Source: a phage. Taken from it: 46,345 nucleotides of DNA. Below are positions 7,251 to 19,759 of the stretch, piece by piece. The stretch lies in the sequence record LC918680.1, one strand, 5' to 3'. Position 1 is the first letter of the stretch; the number at the start of each line of letters is the position of its first letter. The notes beneath the pieces are model-generated. The model had not been told where the DNA came from and ran no database searches. It was given only the letters and a program-made list of their open reading frames with translations. Position numbers and translations under genes: made by a program.

Positions 7251-7680
7251 AAATATTGGTGGGTTGGCTACATTTACGAATAGTATTGCTGATTGGATTG
7301 ATAGAGCTGATGATAACTTCTCTGATATTGTTTCTGGCACTGTAATTAAGGCTGCTAACGCCATCGTTGATTTATCGCCTGTTGATACTGGTAGGTTTAA
7401 GGCTAACTGGCAGATTACAGCGAACTCCCCAGCCGCCCAGTCTCTGAATGATTACGACAAAACAGGTGGAGATACAAAAAGGTATCTGGCAAGGCAAGCT
7501 CGAGCTGTGGCTAATTCACCAGCGACAAAGGTTATCTACATAACTAACAGGCTTGATTACGCCTCTGACCTTGAGTATGGAGCGTCACAACAAGCTCCAG
7601 CAGGTGTCCTTGGCGTTGTGAATATCAGGTTAGGAAGATACTTCGAAGAGGCAGTTGCCGAAGCAAGGAGTAAAAGATAA
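7243..7680 (+). CDS. putative neck/head-tail joining protein (HK97 gp10-like by position)
   Basis: ATG 7243 overlapping upstream stop; neck-module position; family assignment unverified. Confidence 0.45.
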   Translation: MARNIGGLATFTNSIADWIDRADDNFSDIVSGTVIKAANAIVDLSPVDTGRFKANWQITANSPAAQSLNDYDKTGGDTKRYLARQARAVANSPATKVIYITNRLDYASDLEYGASQQAPAGVLGVVNIRLGRYFEEAVAEARSKR

Positions 7681-8078
7681 TGCAGTATGAGCTATCCTTA
7701 GCAGCAAGGAGGTTTGTGACTGATTTGGTTAAAACGTTTCCAGTCAGGTATCCAATTTCCTATGAAAACGTAGCCTTCTCTCCTCCCAATAATGGTGGTA
7801 TGTGGCTGAAATACGATTACACAGAGGCAGATACCGTAACCTACAGCCTGAGTCGCAAGTGTAAGTACTATGTTGGCATGGTTCAGGTATCCGTCTTTTT
7901 CTCACCAGGTGATGGTGTCGACAGTGCAAGGAGGGTTGCTAATCAATTGGCAGAATCCATGACTGATGGTACAATGCTTGACACAGGCTACATTTATGAG
8001 GGCGGCGTGGTTCACCCAGTAGTGAAGTCAAAATCTGGCTGGTTTATTCCAGTTCGTTTCTATGTTCGTCTTGACTAA
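7680..8078 (+). CDS. putative tail terminator/completion protein
   Basis: 132-aa ORF start-overlapping upstream stop, immediately before major tail gene. Confidence 0.45.
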   Translation: MQYELSLAARRFVTDLVKTFPVRYPISYENVAFSPPNNGGMWLKYDYTEADTVTYSLSRKCKYYVGMVQVSVFFSPGDGVDSARRVANQLAESMTDGTMLDTGYIYEGGVVHPVVKSKSGWFIPVRFYVRLD

Positions 8079-8089
8079 AAGGAAAATAT

Positions 8090-8749
8090 ATGGCCCATCT
8101 TAGTAATGGCACTCAGGTCTTCGTAGAAGGCTCCAGGGGAGCTACTATTGACGTAACTGCAATTTCCAATGCTGTTACTCCTGTTTTAACTTTGTCCAGC
8201 GTTGCTGGTATTGCACGCGGTGATTACCTGCTATTTACCAGCTCAGCTTCGACCCTGCTGGCTGATAAGCAAGTTCGCGTTACCGAGGTATCTGATTCAA
8301 CCGTAACTGTTGAAGGTATTGATACCTCCAACACCACTAAGTTCCCAGCTGGCTTAACTGGTGAAGTTGTTAAGATTCTTACTTGGTTTGAAGTTCCTTG
8401 TGTTCATGACGTATCCACTGATGGCGGCGAACAGCAGTTCGTTAACTTCCAGTGTTTATCTGATGAACGTGAGCAGCAGATTCCAACTTATAAGTCTGCG
8501 GTAACCAACACCTACACGTTTGCGCACGAATACACCAACCCGATATATCCGATTCTGCGTAACTATGACGAAGCTGGTACTATTGTTGCTATTCGTCTGT
8601 TCGTACCTCGAGCTAGAGAGATGCGTCTCCAGTCTGGCACTATCGCTTTCAACGACACCCCAAGCATTGGTGTTAACGAAATCGAAACGGTATCCATCGC
8701 GGTATCTATCCGTGGTAGGTTGAGTTCTGTAGCTTCTGAACTGGCATAA
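8090..8749 (+). CDS. major tail protein
   Basis: 219-aa ORF before chaperone and tape measure genes, followed by strong terminator. Confidence 0.6.
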   Translation: MAHLSNGTQVFVEGSRGATIDVTAISNAVTPVLTLSSVAGIARGDYLLFTSSASTLLADKQVRVTEVSDSTVTVEGIDTSNTTKFPAGLTGEVVKILTWFEVPCVHDVSTDGGEQQFVNFQCLSDEREQQIPTYKSAVTNTYTFAHEYTNPIYPILRNYDEAGTIVAIRLFVPRAREMRLQSGTIAFNDTPSIGVNEIETVSIAVSIRGRLSSVASELA

Positions 8750-8756
8750 ATATAAA

Positions 8757-8778
8757 CCCTCTTCGGAGGGTTTTTTAT
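8757..8778 (+). terminator. intrinsic terminator after major tail gene
   Basis: CCCTC-TTCG-GAGGG + TTTTTT. Confidence 0.75.
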
Positions 8779-8781
8779 TGA

Positions 8782-8796
8782 TAGCACTTTTTGTTA
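8782..8796 (+). promoter_or_regulatory. boundary motif copy 2
   Basis: TAGCACTTTTTGTTA after major-tail terminator. Confidence 0.5.
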
Positions 8797-8857
8797 AAGA
8801 CCAAATCGCGGATTGCTGTATAGTTCATTCATCGAAACGAAATGAGATATTAGTGAA

Positions 8858-9106
8858 ATGAACAACGTTAAAAACATCATCAAACTTGCTGCTGCTCTTG
8901 GTGCTTTCTACCTGGCAATTCAGATTGTTAACCCAACTGGTGGCGAAACCGCAAACTCTGATGCAATAAAGTATGAACATGAATTTAATAGTGCATATTC
9001 TCATTGTGAAAAAGTAGCTGGCGATAAGACAAATCAGATTCTGCATTATGGTCGCGAGGTGTGCACCGAAGTTGCTCACAACATTGTAAAAAACGAATCA
9101 AAGTAA
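8858..9106 (+). CDS. small secreted/membrane protein (moron in tail module)
   Basis: N-terminal hydrophobic segment IIKLAAALGAFYLAIQIV; AT-rich; preceded by terminator, boundary motif and conserved CATCGAAACGAAA leader. Confidence 0.55.
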   Translation: MNNVKNIIKLAAALGAFYLAIQIVNPTGGETANSDAIKYEHEFNSAYSHCEKVAGDKTNQILHYGREVCTEVAHNIVKNESK

Positions 9107-9141
9107 TATAATCATTCAACACAAACAAAGGAGATAACGAG

Positions 9142-9456
9142 ATGGCAAAATTTAAACTTTCACTTAAGGCGCTGCCTGACTTTAAACTTCCGGTTAAGTT
9201 TCAGTTAGCGAATGGTGAAGATGCAGAGGTGGTACTAACAGTTAAGCACAAGAAATCATCTGAACTTCAGGAGATTCTTAATCGTGAAAACTTCAGCACT
9301 AAAGAATTGATTAACGAAATCTGCTCTGACTGGGATTTAGAAGAACCATTTACCGATGAGAACGTAGATGAGTTTGCCAACCTTTTCCCTGGTGCCGTTC
9401 CATCACTGATGGATAGCTACATGAAAGCGCTAGCAGGTCAGCGAGTAAAAAACTAA
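9142..9456 (+). CDS. tail assembly chaperone (lambda G-like)
   Basis: 104-aa acidic ORF directly upstream of tape measure gene; ends in slippery A_AAA_AAC. Confidence 0.6.
   Translation: MAKFKLSLKALPDFKLPVKFQLANGEDAEVVLTVKHKKSSELQEILNRENFSTKELINEICSDWDLEEPFTDENVDEFANLFPGAVPSLMDSYMKALAGQRVKN
9447..9453 (+). other. -1 programmed ribosomal frameshift slippery heptamer A_AAA_AAC
   Basis: X_XXY_YYZ heptamer in G frame 3 nt before stop; -1 frame open into T-like ORF. Confidence 0.55.
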
Positions 9457-9770
9457 AACGCGCAGTATACTTACAATACCAGTCACCGCCAACGGATGCT
9501 GAACTCGAAGCTATCGGAATGAAACGTTCCGATTATGAAGGTGAGGAGCCTGAAGAGTTATACTTCGATGAAACAATGATGCAAAGCTGGGATGTGTACT
9601 GTGCCATGTCAACTCAATGGCGAGTAGGGGCTTGCGGTGCCACAGGCCTTGATTATAATTGCCTTCCATTCTTATTCAAAGTCTATAAAATAGATGATGA
9701 CGAAATGGTACTTAACGACATCAGAATACTTGAGGCTAAAGCCTTAGATATGATGAACGCCAAGAAATAG
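9447..9770 (+). CDS. tail assembly chaperone frameshift extension (lambda T-like; expressed as G-T fusion by -1 frameshift)
   Basis: Frame -1 relative to G is open from the slippery heptamer 9447-9453 through 9770 with no stop. Confidence 0.5.
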   Translation, partial: KKLKRAVYLQYQSPPTDAELEAIGMKRSDYEGEEPEELYFDETMMQSWDVYCAMSTQWRVGACGATGLDYNCLPFLFKVYKIDDDEMVLNDIRILEAKALDMMNAKK

Positions 9771-9795
9771 CCATCCTTCGGGGTGGCTTTTTTAT
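9770..9795 (+). terminator. intrinsic terminator/attenuator between G-T and tape measure gene
   Basis: GCCATCC-TTCG-GGGTGGC + TTTTTT. Confidence 0.65.
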
Positions 9796-9807
9796 TATGG
9801 AGACAAC

Positions 9808-12789
9808 ATGGCAACTAACGAAATTGCTGGTATCACGCTAGCCGTCGACGTAGCTCAGGTCGATAAGGGTACGCAATCCTTACAGAAATTCAGGCAAGCA
9901 AACGAGCAAGCTGCAACAGGCATTAATAGCTTCGTCAACGCCGAACTTGTAGCCAAGACTCAAGCAAGGGACACTGCAAGGCAGCTTGAGGAGCAGCGCA
10001 AATCTTTCGCATCACTTCAGCAAGCCATAGACCCAACCGCTGCTAAATTCCTGAAGTTGCAGAAAGCAGCAACAGATTTGGACAAAGCATTTGAATCCGG
10101 GATAGTTCCTGATGATGAATTCTTCAGGCTTGGCTCTGTTATTGAAACTCAAATCAATAAGCTAAACAGGTCTAAAGCCGCTCTTAGCGAAGAAGGCAGG
10201 GCTGCACTACAGGCATCAATAGATAAAGAGAAAGCAACAACAGCAGCGCAAAAGTTCATTCAATCTCTTGAGAACGAGGCGAATGCAGCAAGCCTGACAA
10301 GGACTGAACTTCTTCAGCTTAAGGCTGCTCAGCTAGGAGTTAGTGACCAGGCTGCACCGATTATCGACAGGATTGGAAAGGCTGCCGAGGCATCTGCGGT
10401 ACAATTGCAGAAGCAAAGCTCCGCTTTTGTTAAGTCTGGGCTTAGTGCCGGTCAATACAAGCAAGCAATTCGACAGCTTCCAGCGCAGATTACAGATATC
10501 GTTACATCTCTTGCTAGCGGCATGCCAATCTGGCTTGTAGCAGTCCAGCAGGGCGGTCAGATTAAGGATAGTTTTGGTGGTATCGGCAATACAGCAAGGT
10601 TTGCACTGGCAGCCATTAACCCATTAACGGCGGTTGTTGGGACTCTGGGTCTGGCTCTTGGGGCCTTGGGTATTGCTGCTTATCAGGCTGATAGGAGAGC
10701 ACGAGAGCTAGCAGCAACAATAACGCTGGTTGGAAACTCAACAATCACATCAACAGGGCAAATAAACCAGGTTGTTGATAGCATTGAGAGTTCCACGCTA
10801 GCCACGCGCGGACTCATCCAAGAGATAGCGAATAGTCTTGTAGCAAACGGTAATCTAACGCTTACGCAGATAGATAAGATAACCAAAGCAACTGCTCAGT
10901 GGGCAACTGTTACATCAACGGATTCAAAAACTATACTTGGGTACTTTGACAAGATCACAAAAGACCCGGTTAAAGGCCTTGCTGAGCTTGATAAGCAATT
11001 TAACTTCCTTCAGTCCGGACAGTTAAAACACATAGAGAACTTGAGGAAGACAGCAGGAGAGACAGAAGCTGTAACGGCAGCTACTGAGCTATTCGCTAAC
11101 GTTATGGAGAATAGGCTGGAAGATGTTGCGCTAAGCCTTAACCCCCTTGAAAGTGCATGGAATAGCTTCAGAAAGTTTGTAAGCGACATTTGGGATAGAA
11201 TCGGCAAGCGCACACTTGGTGCTCTTAACTTAATAACTGACGTTGTTGCTGGTACGATTGAGCAGATAAGGTCGTTTATAAACTCAGGCGACATTCTTCT
11301 TGGTGAATTTGCTATCGCTGCAACCAAGACGCTTCAGTCAATACCGGGGCTTGGTGATGTAGGTAACGGCATAATTGCTGAGCAGCAAAAGGTTGTCGAT
11401 GCAGCCAAGAAGCAAAACGAGGAGTTAGCAAAAAGCATCGCTGAGCGAGATGCTAGGATCAGAAAGGGAGAGATGGGATATGTTAAGGAAAACAGCGATA
11501 TCAACCTAACTGGCAACAAACCATCAACAGATAAGGAATTTGCAGCAAGAAGGAAGGCGCTAGCTGATGAGCTTGATGGGATAAAGAAAGCGAGGAGTGA
11601 GAGGAACAAGGCAGTAAAAGAAGAAAGGGATTTAACCTTATCTTATGAATCTGGCGTTCTTGCACTTCAGGCTCAGCTAAAGGTTTTACAAGAGCACAGG
11701 ACGATAAACGATGTAATAAGTAACGAACGCAAGCAGCTATTCCAGGAGGAAGCTAAGTTTGCAATACTTGAGCAAAGGAAAGCGGATGGTGCGCTTACAA
11801 AATCACAGGCTAAGCTACTTGCGCAGAAGAATATCATTCTTGAACAGGCTAAACAGAAGGCTGAACTTGGTGACCAGATTGTGCTTCAGGAGAGGTCAAA
11901 CAAGTTACTTGATGACAACCTTAAGAAGACAATACAGATTACCAATGAGGCGAAGAATGTTTCACTTGCTGCGGGTCTATCCGAAAGGGAGCGGCAAAGG
12001 GCAGGAGAACTTAAGGCGCTAGAGTCCAATCAGGTAAACAAGGGTGGCTCTGTAGATGATGTTGATTTCCAGAATCTGCTGGAAGCAAGAAAAGAATACT
12101 ACAGGCAGGAAGATAACCTAAGGTCAGACTGGCAAGCTGGTGTAACTTCAACGCTTGCTGACTTAACTGAGAAGTACACTGACTTCAACCAAATTGCTAA
12201 GGATTTGACTGTCGCAGCTTTTGATGGAATTACCGACCAGATTACAAACCTTGTAACCACTGGAGAAACTAATTTCAGGGAGTTCACGGCAAACATACTG
12301 AAAATGATTGCGAAAATTGCAACTCAGCTACTTTTGGTAAAGGCTATTGAATCTACAATTAAGAGCTTTGGTGGTGACACTGGAGCAGGTAGTGCCTTTG
12401 AGTCAATAAAGTCAGCAATTGGCTTTGCTGGTGGCGGCTACACTGGAGACGGCGGGAAGTATCAACCTGCTGGAACTGTGCACCGCGGTGAGTTTGTATT
12501 CACAAAAGAAGCTACAAGCAGGATTGGCGTTAAGAACCTGTACAAGCTAATGCGAGGTTATGCAAATGGCGGCGCTGTTGGTGGGCCCTCTGGCTATGCT
12601 AATGGTGGAGTTGTTGGTGGCACGAATGTCAGTGTTGGCGGCGTGACGGTTAACGTAAACTCTGGAATTGGTGGCGGAAATGATGCTAAGGCGATAGAAT
12701 CTGGAGTTAAGGTTATCGTTGCTGAGGAAATCAGCAAGTCATTCCAGCAGGGCGGAAGAGCCTTTGCTTATCTGAGGGGTTACAACTAA
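9808..12789 (+). CDS. tail tape measure protein
   Basis: 993-aa ORF, coiled-coil-rich, Gly-rich C-terminal region, follows G/GT chaperone pair. Confidence 0.9.
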   Translation: MATNEIAGITLAVDVAQVDKGTQSLQKFRQANEQAATGINSFVNAELVAKTQARDTARQLEEQRKSFASLQQAIDPTAAKFLKLQKAATDLDKAFESGIVPDDEFFRLGSVIETQINKLNRSKAALSEEGRAALQASIDKEKATTAAQKFIQSLENEANAASLTRTELLQLKAAQLGVSDQAAPIIDRIGKAAEASAVQLQKQSSAFVKSGLSAGQYKQAIRQLPAQITDIVTSLASGMPIWLVAVQQGGQIKDSFGGIGNTARFALAAINPLTAVVGTLGLALGALGIAAYQADRRARELAATITLVGNSTITSTGQINQVVDSIESSTLATRGLIQEIANSLVANGNLTLTQIDKITKATAQWATVTSTDSKTILGYFDKITKDPVKGLAELDKQFNFLQSGQLKHIENLRKTAGETEAVTAATELFANVMENRLEDVALSLNPLESAWNSFRKFVSDIWDRIGKRTLGALNLITDVVAGTIEQIRSFINSGDILLGEFAIAATKTLQSIPGLGDVGNGIIAEQQKVVDAAKKQNEELAKSIAERDARIRKGEMGYVKENSDINLTGNKPSTDKEFAARRKALADELDGIKKARSERNKAVKEERDLTLSYESGVLALQAQLKVLQEHRTINDVISNERKQLFQEEAKFAILEQRKADGALTKSQAKLLAQKNIILEQAKQKAELGDQIVLQERSNKLLDDNLKKTIQITNEAKNVSLAAGLSERERQRAGELKALESNQVNKGGSVDDVDFQNLLEARKEYYRQEDNLRSDWQAGVTSTLADLTEKYTDFNQIAKDLTVAAFDGITDQITNLVTTGETNFREFTANILKMIAKIATQLLLVKAIESTIKSFGGDTGAGSAFESIKSAIGFAGGGYTGDGGKYQPAGTVHRGEFVFTKEATSRIGVKNLYKLMRGYANGGAVGGPSGYANGGVVGGTNVSVGGVTVNVNSGIGGGNDAKAIESGVKVIVAEEISKSFQQGGRAFAYLRGYN

Positions 12790-19091: not shown

Positions 19092-19759
19092 TGAGTTATG
19101 GAGCGTACATAAATGTAAATGGTAACCCGTTCATAACCCAGAACTCAACGCCGATGGCGCTTTATAGAAAAGTTACAATTAACTCAACGAAATCAAATAA
19201 TTTCAACTCAGCTAGCGCCTCAGTAAACATACCAGGAGGAACGTCACTGATAGGTTTTGGGAGGACCAGTGGGTATGCAGCAATAAGTAGCTCAATATCT
19301 GGGAGTACAGTTTCGGTAAGCGCTAGCAACTACAAAGTTACAAATTTCACTCTTGAAGCTTATTTCTTTGCTATATTCCCACAAGAACTACCAGCGTGGG
19401 GTATGGCAATATGGGATGATTCAGGTAAGTTAATACTAACAAATGAAACAAAAGTAATGACTGACTTGATAACGATTGGTACGCCAGGAGCTTCTAGTGG
19501 AGGTGTGTTTATAGATACAACAATACAAGGTAGGAAGCTTGCTGTTTGCCCTGGGGTACTTGGTGCGGTTTTGCTTGCAGGCCCTCCTCAGCAGGGGCAG
19601 CCCACAATTCAGCCAGTCACGGCATACACTGCATGTCATGACCAAGATGGAGGAACAAGGTTTAGGTCAGCAACTTCAAGTAGCGCATCCGGCGGTAGCC
19701 TTGGAGCTTCAAACCTTGGAACAATAATGACCGCCATTGACGTTTCAATATATGACTAA
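19091..19759 (+). CDS. hypothetical Ser/Thr/Gly-rich protein (putative fibre-associated)
   Basis: 222-aa ORF start-overlapping upstream stop (TAATG); followed by strong terminator. Confidence 0.45.
   Translation: MSYGAYINVNGNPFITQNSTPMALYRKVTINSTKSNNFNSASASVNIPGGTSLIGFGRTSGYAAISSSISGSTVSVSASNYKVTNFTLEAYFFAIFPQELPAWGMAIWDDSGKLILTNETKVMTDLITIGTPGASSGGVFIDTTIQGRKLAVCPGVLGAVLLAGPPQQGQPTIQPVTAYTACHDQDGGTRFRSATSSSASGGSLGASNLGTIMTAIDVSIYD

What the first reader, a model, noticed from the sequence alone, without database searches (positions are those of the whole stretch)
9142..9770. Predicted -1 programmed frameshift making a G-T-like tail chaperone fusion
The G-like ORF ends ...GTA AAA AAC TAA. 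The heptamer A_AAA_AAC (9447-9453) is a canonical X_XXY_YYZ slippery site, and the -1 frame is open from there through 9770, ending just before the tape measure gene. This matches the conserved G/GT arrangement of long-tailed phages.
Basis: partly seen in the sequence, partly recalled or inferred. Interest (0 to 1): 0.45.

Follow-up and report, generated by a model that had tools for sequence, protein, structure and literature searches.

The report
T1-type phage tail chaperone frameshift
This is the standard, already annotated -1 ribosomal frameshift that lets T1-like coliphages make a short and a long form of their tail-assembly (tape-measure) chaperone from one gene pair; it is real by comparative evidence but ordinary.

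Summary
The 104-codon ORF at 9142-9456 ends GTA AAA AAC TAA. A_AAA_AAC lies at 9447-9453 in the X_XXY_YYZ phase. The -1 frame is open from 9417 to the TAG at 9768-9770, 37 nt before the tape measure start (9808).

The ORF is Pfam Phage_TAC_4 and the -1 segment is DUF1799. One PHROG profile, built from fused proteins, matches both halves end to end. The window is a Drexlerviridae (T1-like) phage.

- The same heptamer plus TAA occurs in 25 of 29 distinct related contexts, T1 included, while neighbouring synonymous sites vary freely.
- The 22 codons between the junction and the first possible start (ATG 9519) show a coding signature in the -1 frame and contain no ATG, GTG or TTG.
- That Met is not conserved in relatives.
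- Phage U136B already annotates the joined frameshift product, and papers on the T1-like phages Stevie and Solomon report the frameshift.

Two details are new. This lineage lacks the downstream hairpin found in T1 and Tempevirinae relatives. A few relatives keep only an A_AAR tetramer. The predicted GT is 209 aa (about 24 kDa) and probably made at low level. Nothing here is novel in kind.

The parts
8090..8749 (+). Major tail (tube) protein gene, upstream neighbour. By analogy with lambda gpV, it is the presumed binding partner of the T domain.
   Evidence: Pfam Phage_tail_3 E=7e-66 and phrog_584 'major tail protein' E=3.5e-83.
8754..8781 (+). Terminator-like hairpin (AAACCCTC UUCG GAGGGTTT) plus T-run after the major tail gene.
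   Evidence: Phage T1 annotates a rho-independent terminator at the equivalent place.
9128..9133 (+). Shine-Dalgarno AAGGAG, 8 nt upstream of the G start codon.
   Evidence: Read from the sequence.
9142..9456 (+). G-type tail assembly (tape measure) chaperone ORF, 104 aa, 11.8 kDa, the zero-frame product.
   Evidence: Pfam PF08748 Phage_TAC_4 E=1.2e-32 over residues 1-104. phrog_569 and phrog_17368 also match.
9447..9453 (+). Slippery heptamer A_AAA_AAC, the predicted site of the -1 shift.
   Evidence: It is identical in 25 of 29 distinct related contexts, including phage T1.
9454..9456 (+). Zero-frame TAA stop of G, directly 3' of the heptamer. It may add a pause.
   Evidence: The stop is TAA in 28 of 29 contexts.
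9453..9770 (+). T segment, the -1 frame extension of 105 codons plus TAG. Predicted GT = join(9142..9453, 9453..9770), 209 aa, 24.0 kDa.
   Evidence: Pfam DUF1799 E=2.3e-14. phrog_17368 positions 109-211, E=8e-50. phrog_680 also matches. Codon-position entropy is 0.47/0.33/1.18 for the 22 codons before the first possible start.
9519..9521 (+). First ATG in the -1 frame. Gene callers use it for a separate 83-aa ORF, but it is probably not a real start.
   Evidence: There is no SD upstream (GAAGCTATCGGA ATG). The residue is Leu in many relatives. Annotated starts differ between records.
9769..9798 (+). Terminator-like hairpin (AGCCATCC UUCG GGGTGGCT) plus T-run between the T stop and the tape measure start.
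   Evidence: Phage T1 annotates a terminator at the equivalent place.
9808..12789 (+). Tape measure protein gene, 993 aa, downstream neighbour. By analogy with lambda gpH, it is the presumed ligand of G and GT.
   Evidence: Pfam TMP_2 E=3e-52 and Tape_meas_lam_C E=5e-17. phrog_24 E=5e-246.

Best explanation
Genes 9142-9456 and 9453-9770 are the tape-measure (tail assembly) chaperone pair of a T1-like (Drexlerviridae) coliphage.

Most ribosomes translate G and stop at TAA 9454, giving a 104-aa protein. A small fraction slips back one base on A_AAA_AAC (9447-9453). They then read CTA AAA CGC... in the -1 frame to TAG 9768, giving a 209-aa GT fusion.

The slip could be a tandem slip of tRNA-Lys and tRNA-Asn, or a P-site slip of tRNA-Lys on the A_AAA core.

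By analogy with lambda gpG and gpGT, many G and few GT would coat the tape measure protein. The T domain would recruit the major tail protein so the tube polymerises to the right length. Neither chaperone would end up in the virion.

Shown here:
- the sequence anatomy
- family membership of both halves
- synteny
- conservation of the frame change and of the slip site
- protein-level constraint on -1 codons that no start codon can reach

Inferred:
- that the shift is ribosomal
- its efficiency, probably around 1% or a few per cent, because this heptamer is weak in E. coli and no stimulatory structure is detectable in this lineage
- the junction residue (Asn or Lys)
- the chaperone mechanism
For: - Anatomy.
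- Families: Phage_TAC_4 E=1e-32, DUF1799 E=2e-14. The fused-protein profile phrog_17368 is matched by G (1-107) and T (109-211).
- Lambda-like synteny.
- Conserved frame change: 1138 phage records match the fused protein, and 909 cover at least 80% of it in one place. All but one of the listed rows are two tblastn pieces.
- Conserved slip site: AAAAAAC+TAA in 25 of 29 distinct contexts, with invariant wobble bases amid saturated synonymous variation. A distant Ralstonia phage (31% identity) has a different canonical heptamer, G_GGA_AAC, at the same position. Phage T1 itself has GCA AAA AAC TAA.
- No reachable start: there is no start codon in the -1 frame from 9417 to 9518, yet those codons have entropy 0.47/0.33/1.18 at positions 1/2/3, like the rest of G and T. 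The first candidate start varies from +11 to +125 nt in relatives.
- Prior annotation: the U136B joined CDS 'tape measure chaperone protein frameshift product'. Stevie and Solomon papers (PMC4319613, PMC8407766).
- Precedent for the motif: A_AAA_AAC shifts at more than 0.1% without stimulators in E. coli, and the paper's cluster search lists an A_AAA_AAC IS cluster as a proven case with no established stimulator (PMC4066793).
- Mechanism in lambda: PMC5009743.
Against: - There is no experimental evidence for this phage or, as far as I found, for any T1-like phage. All support is comparative.
- A_AAA_AAC is rated low-efficiency in E. coli, because the AAC-to-AAA re-pairing is poorly tolerated (PMC4066793).
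- The window shows no downstream stimulatory structure (60 nt, -7.9 kcal/mol, z=-0.26; 107 nt, z=-1.58). RNAalifold finds none conserved across the family.
- The upstream SD-like AGGT (9435-9438) is not conserved.
- Five relatives (L033-L037) and Webervirus lack the full heptamer, so the heptamer is not strictly required in the family.
- No solved structure matches by sequence, and no structure was modelled.
Confidence: 0.9

Rival explanations
1. T is a separate small protein made by independent initiation or re-initiation at ATG 9519, as most gene callers annotate it. No fusion is made.
For: An ATG-started 83-aa ORF exists at 9519-9770. Phage ES annotates it that way. The Pfam DUF1799 match begins at about that residue (residue 22 of the -1 segment).
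Against: - There is no Shine-Dalgarno before 9519.
- The Met is Leu (CTA, TTA or CTT) in many relatives.
- The first candidate start lies at +11, +50, +56, +65, +122 or +125 nt in different relatives, which would remove up to 41 conserved residues.
- The 22 codons upstream show a clear coding signature in the -1 frame without any start codon.
- phrog_17368 and phrog_680 align right up to the junction.
Confidence: 0.04
2. The fusion is made by transcriptional slippage. RNA polymerase adds one A in the A6 run (9447-9452), giving an mRNA in which G and T are in frame, with junction ...VKKLKR....
For: A homopolymeric A6 run is conserved in most relatives. An inserted A would give the same frame change.
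Against: - Six A is, from my own knowledge, well below the run lengths (about 9 or more) used for productive slippage in bacteria.
- Relatives with GCA AAG GTC, GCA AAA GTT or G GGA AAC keep the frame change without a long run.
- The phase of the run relative to the codons is strictly conserved. Ribosomal slippage needs that; polymerase slippage does not.
Confidence: 0.04
3. It is a sequencing or assembly error in a homopolymer. G and T are really one continuous gene.
For: Three related records (L003 = N5822, L039, L040) have A5 at this place and other frame breaks, so homopolymer errors do occur here.
Against: - A5 does not put G and T in frame. That would need A7.
- Those three records carry further frame breaks within the G-T region itself, and N5822 also has its major tail gene split in two.
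- A6 followed by TAA is found in dozens of independent genomes, including T1.
- All but one of the listed tblastn rows are in two pieces.
Confidence: 0.01

Closest known systems
Tape measure chaperone frameshift of T1-like phages (Drexlerviridae): T1 ST40/ST39, U136B_045/046, Stevie, Solomon
   Same: - Orthologous proteins, at 44-98% identity to the fused protein.
- Same gene order.
- Same A_AAA_AAC + TAA site in T1 and most relatives.
- Same terminators flanking the cassette.

   Different: - The window's lineage (Braunvirinae-like; closest is phage ES at 91.7% nt) lacks the GGGCGGTTT/AAACCGCCC hairpin that starts 6-7 nt after the heptamer in T1 and Tempevirinae relatives.
- It has an extra 82-aa ORF (8858-9106) between the major tail gene and G.
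Phage lambda gpG/gpGT (Levin 1993; Xu 2004, 2013, 2014; summarised in PMC5009743)
   Same: - Position between the major tail and tape measure genes.
- A -1 shift near the end of G.
- A fusion about twice the length of G.
- Expected low GT:G ratio.
- Downstream M-L-K-I-J module.
   Different: - Different Pfam families: Phage_TAC_4 and DUF1799 here. No match to lambda's G or T families was reported.
- Slip site A_AAA_AAC against the stop here, rather than lambda's G_GGA_AAG (the lambda site is from my own knowledge).
- Function is inferred by analogy only.
IS1 insA-insB' -1 frameshift
   Same: From my own knowledge, IS1 uses A_AAA_AAC in E. coli. PMC4066793 cites IS1 as an element that uses a low-efficiency motif with or without stimulators, and separately lists an A_AAA_AAC IS cluster as a proven case with no established stimulator.
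   Different: Unrelated proteins and purpose (transposase dosage).

Membership tests
G/GT tail assembly chaperone pair with programmed -1 frameshift (Xu, Hendrix & Duda 2004 criteria) | Two overlapping ORFs located between the major tail protein gene and the tape measure gene | tested here: met
   Major tail gene 8090-8749, G 9142-9456, T to 9770, tape measure 9808-12789. One extra small ORF (8858-9106) sits between the major tail gene and G.
G/GT tail assembly chaperone pair with programmed -1 frameshift (Xu, Hendrix & Duda 2004 criteria) | The second ORF is in the -1 frame, overlaps the end of the first, and has no start or RBS of its own | tested here: met
   The overlap is 37 nt. There is no ATG, GTG or TTG in the -1 frame from 9417 to 9518 and no SD before ATG 9519. 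The start position is not conserved in relatives.
G/GT tail assembly chaperone pair with programmed -1 frameshift (Xu, Hendrix & Duda 2004 criteria) | A slippery sequence in the correct phase within the overlap, conserved among relatives | tested here: met
   A_AAA_AAC at 9447-9453, found in 25 of 29 distinct contexts. The variants are an A_AAG or A_AAA tetramer, or G_GGA_AAC, at the same codons.
G/GT tail assembly chaperone pair with programmed -1 frameshift (Xu, Hendrix & Duda 2004 criteria) | The fusion protein is actually produced at a low fixed ratio and is required for tail assembly | not testable with these tools
   This needs a western blot or mass spectrometry, a reporter assay and genetics. 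I found no experimental report for T1-like phages.
Pfam PF08748 Phage_TAC_4 | Score above the gathering threshold over the full domain | tested here: met
   113.2 bits against a cutoff of 21.1. Residues 1-104 match profile positions 1-124 of 124.
Pfam PF08809 DUF1799 (T part) | Score above the gathering threshold | tested here: met
   53.8 bits against a cutoff of 26. Residues 22-101 of the -1 segment match profile positions 2-80 of 80.
Drexlerviridae (T1-like phages) | Nucleotide and protein similarity and gene order matching members of the family | tested here: met
   91.7% nt identity over 8090-9810 to Escherichia phage ES (Drexlerviridae; Braunvirinae). The tail module is collinear with T1.
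-1 PRF signals with a downstream stimulatory RNA structure (dnaX/IS3 type) | A stable hairpin or pseudoknot 5-9 nt 3' of the heptamer | tested here: not met
   Window: -7.9 kcal/mol over 60 nt, z=-0.26, with nothing at the right spacing. The feature is present in T1 and Tempevirinae relatives (-14 to -19 kcal/mol, z down to -3.5) but has no compensatory changes. Pseudoknots were not searched.

The most novel reading that the evidence does not exclude
The frameshift signal may be evolving within Drexlerviridae.

- T1 and Tempevirinae pair A_AAA_AAC with a 9-12 bp hairpin 6-7 nt downstream.
- This window's lineage has lost that hairpin or never had it, and would rely on the heptamer plus the abutting TAA.
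- Other lineages keep only an A_AAR tetramer.

The conserved core would then be a tRNA-Lys P-site slip next to a stop codon. In this window that core route would put Lys rather than Asn at the junction, although a tandem slip on the intact heptamer would still give Asn. Different lineages would run different G:GT ratios.
Probability: 0.35. Interest if true: 0.25.

Novelty: already known. Interest (0 to 1): 0.1.

Why it matters
The main value is for annotation. Most deposited relatives call G and a truncated T as two unrelated 'hypothetical' or mislabelled proteins ('minor tail protein', 'tail length tape measure protein'). The correct feature is join(9142..9453, 9453..9770) with ribosomal slippage.

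Biologically it is one more instance of the near-universal G/GT arrangement of long-tailed phages. The only mildly interesting point is the variation of the signal inside one phage family: a hairpin present or absent, and a heptamer versus a tetramer. That variation could serve as a natural series for studying how the G:GT ratio is tuned.

Tried and rejected
- Downstream stimulatory structure. Single-sequence folds of the window and RNAalifold on 14 diverse relatives gave nothing for the window or for the family as a whole. A hairpin appears only in the T1/Tempevirinae subset. Pair counting there showed no compensatory changes, only U-A to U-G. It is therefore suggestive, not proven, and it does not apply to this window.
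- Upstream Shine-Dalgarno-like stimulator. AGGT at 9435-9438 lies 8 nt before the heptamer, but the Gly codon varies (GGT, GGG, GGC, GGA) in relatives. I rejected it as a conserved element.
- Natural in-frame G-T fusion. Enterobacter phage N5822 gave a single tblastn piece. Inspection showed an error-ridden assembly with A5 and other indels, so it was rejected. L039 and L040 are the same.
- Sequence match to solved structures with the 209-aa fusion: none at E<=1.
- The second in-phase A_AAA_AAC at 9088-9094 in ORF 8858-9106. The -1 frame closes after 5 codons, so I treated it as coincidence.
- I did not run the large protein-database searches or structure prediction. Pfam and PHROG matches and more than 1100 phage records already settle family membership.

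Full report
**Observation**

From ATG 9142, preceded by AAGGAG at 9128-9133, the zero frame runs 104 codons. It ends ...GGT CAG CGA GTA AAA AAC TAA, with TAA at 9454-9456. The heptamer A_AAA_AAC occupies 9447-9453 in the X_XXY_YYZ phase.

The -1 frame is open from 9417, a 37-nt overlap. It continues for 105 codons from 9453 to TAG at 9768-9770. The +1 frame closes after 15 codons. The next gene starts at 9808 and is a tape measure protein (Pfam TMP_2 E=3e-52, Tape_meas_lam_C E=5e-17).

The heptamer on its own is not improbable.
- About 0.06 in-phase XXXYYYN heptamers are expected in the overlap.
- The + strand of the window has 142 such heptamers and six AAAAAAC.
- One of the six, at 9088-9094, is in phase in the neighbouring small ORF and leads nowhere.

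The case therefore rests on context and conservation.

**What the genes are**

- The 104-aa product matches Pfam Phage_TAC_4 end to end (E=1.2e-32).
- The -1 segment matches DUF1799 (E=2.3e-14).
- In PHROGs, the 213-position profile phrog_17368 is matched by G at positions 1-107 and by the -1 segment at 109-211 (E=1e-30 and 8e-50). That family is therefore built from fused GT proteins.

The neighbours form a lambda-like tail module:
- tail terminator, 7680-8078
- major tail protein, 8090-8749
- G, T and the tape measure gene
- homologues of lambda M, L, K (JAB plus NlpC/P60), I and J

**Where it comes from**

Region 8090-9810 is 91.7% identical to Escherichia phage ES (Drexlerviridae, Braunvirinae) and 88-93% identical to phages CY1, Rao1, TR2, TR3 and IMM-001.

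tblastn with the conceptual 209-aa fusion hits 1138 phage records, and 909 of them cover at least 80% of it in one place. All but one of the 40 rows listed are two pieces, meaning two frames. Hosts include Escherichia, Klebsiella, Shigella, Salmonella, Citrobacter and Enterobacter, with Ralstonia at 31% identity.

**Comparative test of the frameshift**

I collected 46 related loci and later added phage T1.

1. Slip site. AAAAAAC followed by TAA sits at the same codons in 25 of 29 distinct 63-nt contexts, including T1 itself (GCA AAA AAC TAA).
   - The wobble bases of the three heptamer codons are invariant in those 25.
   - The five preceding codons (Leu, Ala, Gly, Gln, Arg) use 6, 4, 4, 2 and 4 synonymous forms.
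   - The exceptions are informative. Loci L033-L037 have GCA AAG GTC TAA. Webervirus has GCA AAA GTT TAA. Each keeps an A_AAR tetramer at codon -2.
   - The Ralstonia phage has a different canonical heptamer, G_GGA_AAC TGA, at the same position.

2. No start for T.
   - In the window the -1 frame has no ATG, GTG or TTG between 9417 and 9518.
   - ATG 9519 has no Shine-Dalgarno.
   - In relatives that residue is often Leu encoded by CTA, TTA or CTT.
   - The first conceivable start lies at +11, +50, +56, +65, +122 or +125 nt from the G stop, depending on the phage.
   - Deposited annotations accordingly start T at inconsistent places.

3. Coding signature. The 22 codons between the junction and Met 9519 lie beyond the G stop and cannot be reached from any start.
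   - Their codon-position entropies are 0.47/0.33/1.18.
   - That pattern is indistinguishable from G (0.72/0.50/1.34) and from the rest of T (0.62/0.43/1.23).
   - The peptide LKRAVYLxYQxPPTDAELEA is conserved across the family.
   - These codons are therefore translated in the -1 frame, and only a shift from G can deliver ribosomes there.

**Mechanism**

The best-supported model is a ribosomal -1 slip on A_AAA_AAC.

What PMC4066793 says about the motif in E. coli:
- It is a low-efficiency motif, because the AAC-to-AAA re-pairing in the A site is poorly tolerated.
- It still shifts at more than 0.1% without stimulators.
- Its cluster search lists an A_AAA_AAC IS cluster as a proven case of frameshifting with no established stimulator.
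- A_AA.G and A_AA.A are among the four shift-prone tetramers.

The tetramer-only relatives suggest that the conserved core is a tRNA-Lys P-site slip at codon -2, next to a stop.

No stimulatory structure is detectable in the window.
- 60 nt from the stop fold at -7.9 kcal/mol, z=-0.26.
- 107 nt fold with z=-1.58.
- RNAalifold finds nothing across the family.

T1 and Tempevirinae relatives differ. They have a hairpin GGGCGGTTT...AAACCGCCC starting 6-7 nt after the heptamer, at -14 to -19 kcal/mol and z down to -3.5. It shows only U-A to U-G variation and no compensatory pairs.

I therefore expect a low GT:G ratio here, of the order of lambda's 1:30 (PMC5009743) or lower. The junction residue depends on the route:
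- Asn for a tandem slip or a slip at the stop
- Lys for a tRNA-Lys P-site slip with an empty A site, or for transcriptional slippage

The role of G and GT is inferred from lambda and not tested here. In lambda, G and the G part of GT coat the tape measure protein. The T domain recruits the major tail protein. Neither is in the virion.

**Rivals**

- Independent initiation of T is contradicted by the start-codon and coding-signature results above.
- Transcriptional slippage on A6 is unlikely. The run is short, and relatives keep the frame change without a run.
- Sequencing error is excluded by the many independent genomes with A6. The three records with A5 (N5822, L039, L040) carry further frame breaks, and A5 would not join the frames anyway.

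**What is already known**

- Phage U136B carries a joined CDS annotated 'tape measure chaperone protein frameshift product'.
- The paper for phage Solomon, whose structural proteins resemble those of T1, reports the chaperone's 'programmed translational frameshift' (PMC8407766).
- The G/GT arrangement is textbook for long-tailed phages (PMC5009743).

The finding is therefore correct and useful for annotation. The closest relative, ES, labels the two ORFs 'hypothetical protein' and 'minor tail protein'. It is not new.

**Verdict**

| Item | Verdict |
|---|---|
| Observation | confirmed |
| Confidence in the frameshift model | about 0.9 |
| Novelty | already known |
| Interest | 0.1 |

The only mildly novel angle is the diversity of the signal within one family: hairpin present or absent, and heptamer versus tetramer.

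Noticed in passing
window 8754-8781 and 9769-9798: Two terminator-like hairpins, both with UUCG tetraloops and T-runs, bracket the G/T cassette. One follows the major tail gene and one lies between the T stop and the tape measure start. Phage T1 annotates rho-independent terminators at both equivalent places. They probably step down transcription along the tail operon.
   Followed up: partly
window 8858-9106: An 82-aa ORF (phrog_22925, unknown function, no Pfam hit, hydrophobic N-terminal stretch) sits between the major tail gene and G. The megablast match to the more distant relatives stops about here (query position ~853 = window ~8942). T1 has only a 76-nt gap at this place. Relatives label it variously 'TfmS', 'exonuclease' or hypothetical.
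   Followed up: no
window 9086-9094: The same nonamer GTA AAA AAC occurs in phase near the end of ORF 8858-9106, 12 nt before its stop. The -1 frame closes after 5 codons, so this looks like coincidence. It is a reminder that an in-phase heptamer alone proves nothing.
   Followed up: yes
window 9084-9112: A sigma-70-like promoter match (TTGTAA, 17 nt, TATAAT; 10 of 12) lies just upstream of the G ribosome-binding site, inside the end of the small ORF. It is a consensus match only.
   Followed up: no
L047 (T1) 19188-19226; L002, L024 and others ~1819-1850: T1 and Tempevirinae relatives have a 9-12 bp hairpin (GGGCGGTTT / AAACCGCCC) starting 6-7 nt 3' of the heptamer, the classic spacing for a -1 stimulator. 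Synonymous sites in the stem are invariant, but there are no compensatory changes. It is absent from the window, ES, the Rtp-like loci and L033-L037.
   Followed up: partly
L033-L037 ~1804-1815; L045 ~1816-1827; L046 1815-1821: Alternative slip sites occur at the same codons. L033-L037 have GCA AAG GTC TAA (A_AAG tetramer). Webervirus has GCA AAA GTT TAA (A_AAA tetramer). The Ralstonia phage has G_GGA_AAC TGA.
   Followed up: partly
L003 (Enterobacter phage N5822, MW032452), L039, L040: These records have A5 instead of A6 at the slip site and further frame breaks within the G-T region. N5822 also has its major tail gene split in two. They look like homopolymer sequencing errors rather than biology.
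   Followed up: yes
and one search hit lists: Several records named 'Campylobacter phage' (for example A110b and A134) are T1-like coliphage genomes by sequence. The host attribution looks doubtful.
   Followed up: no
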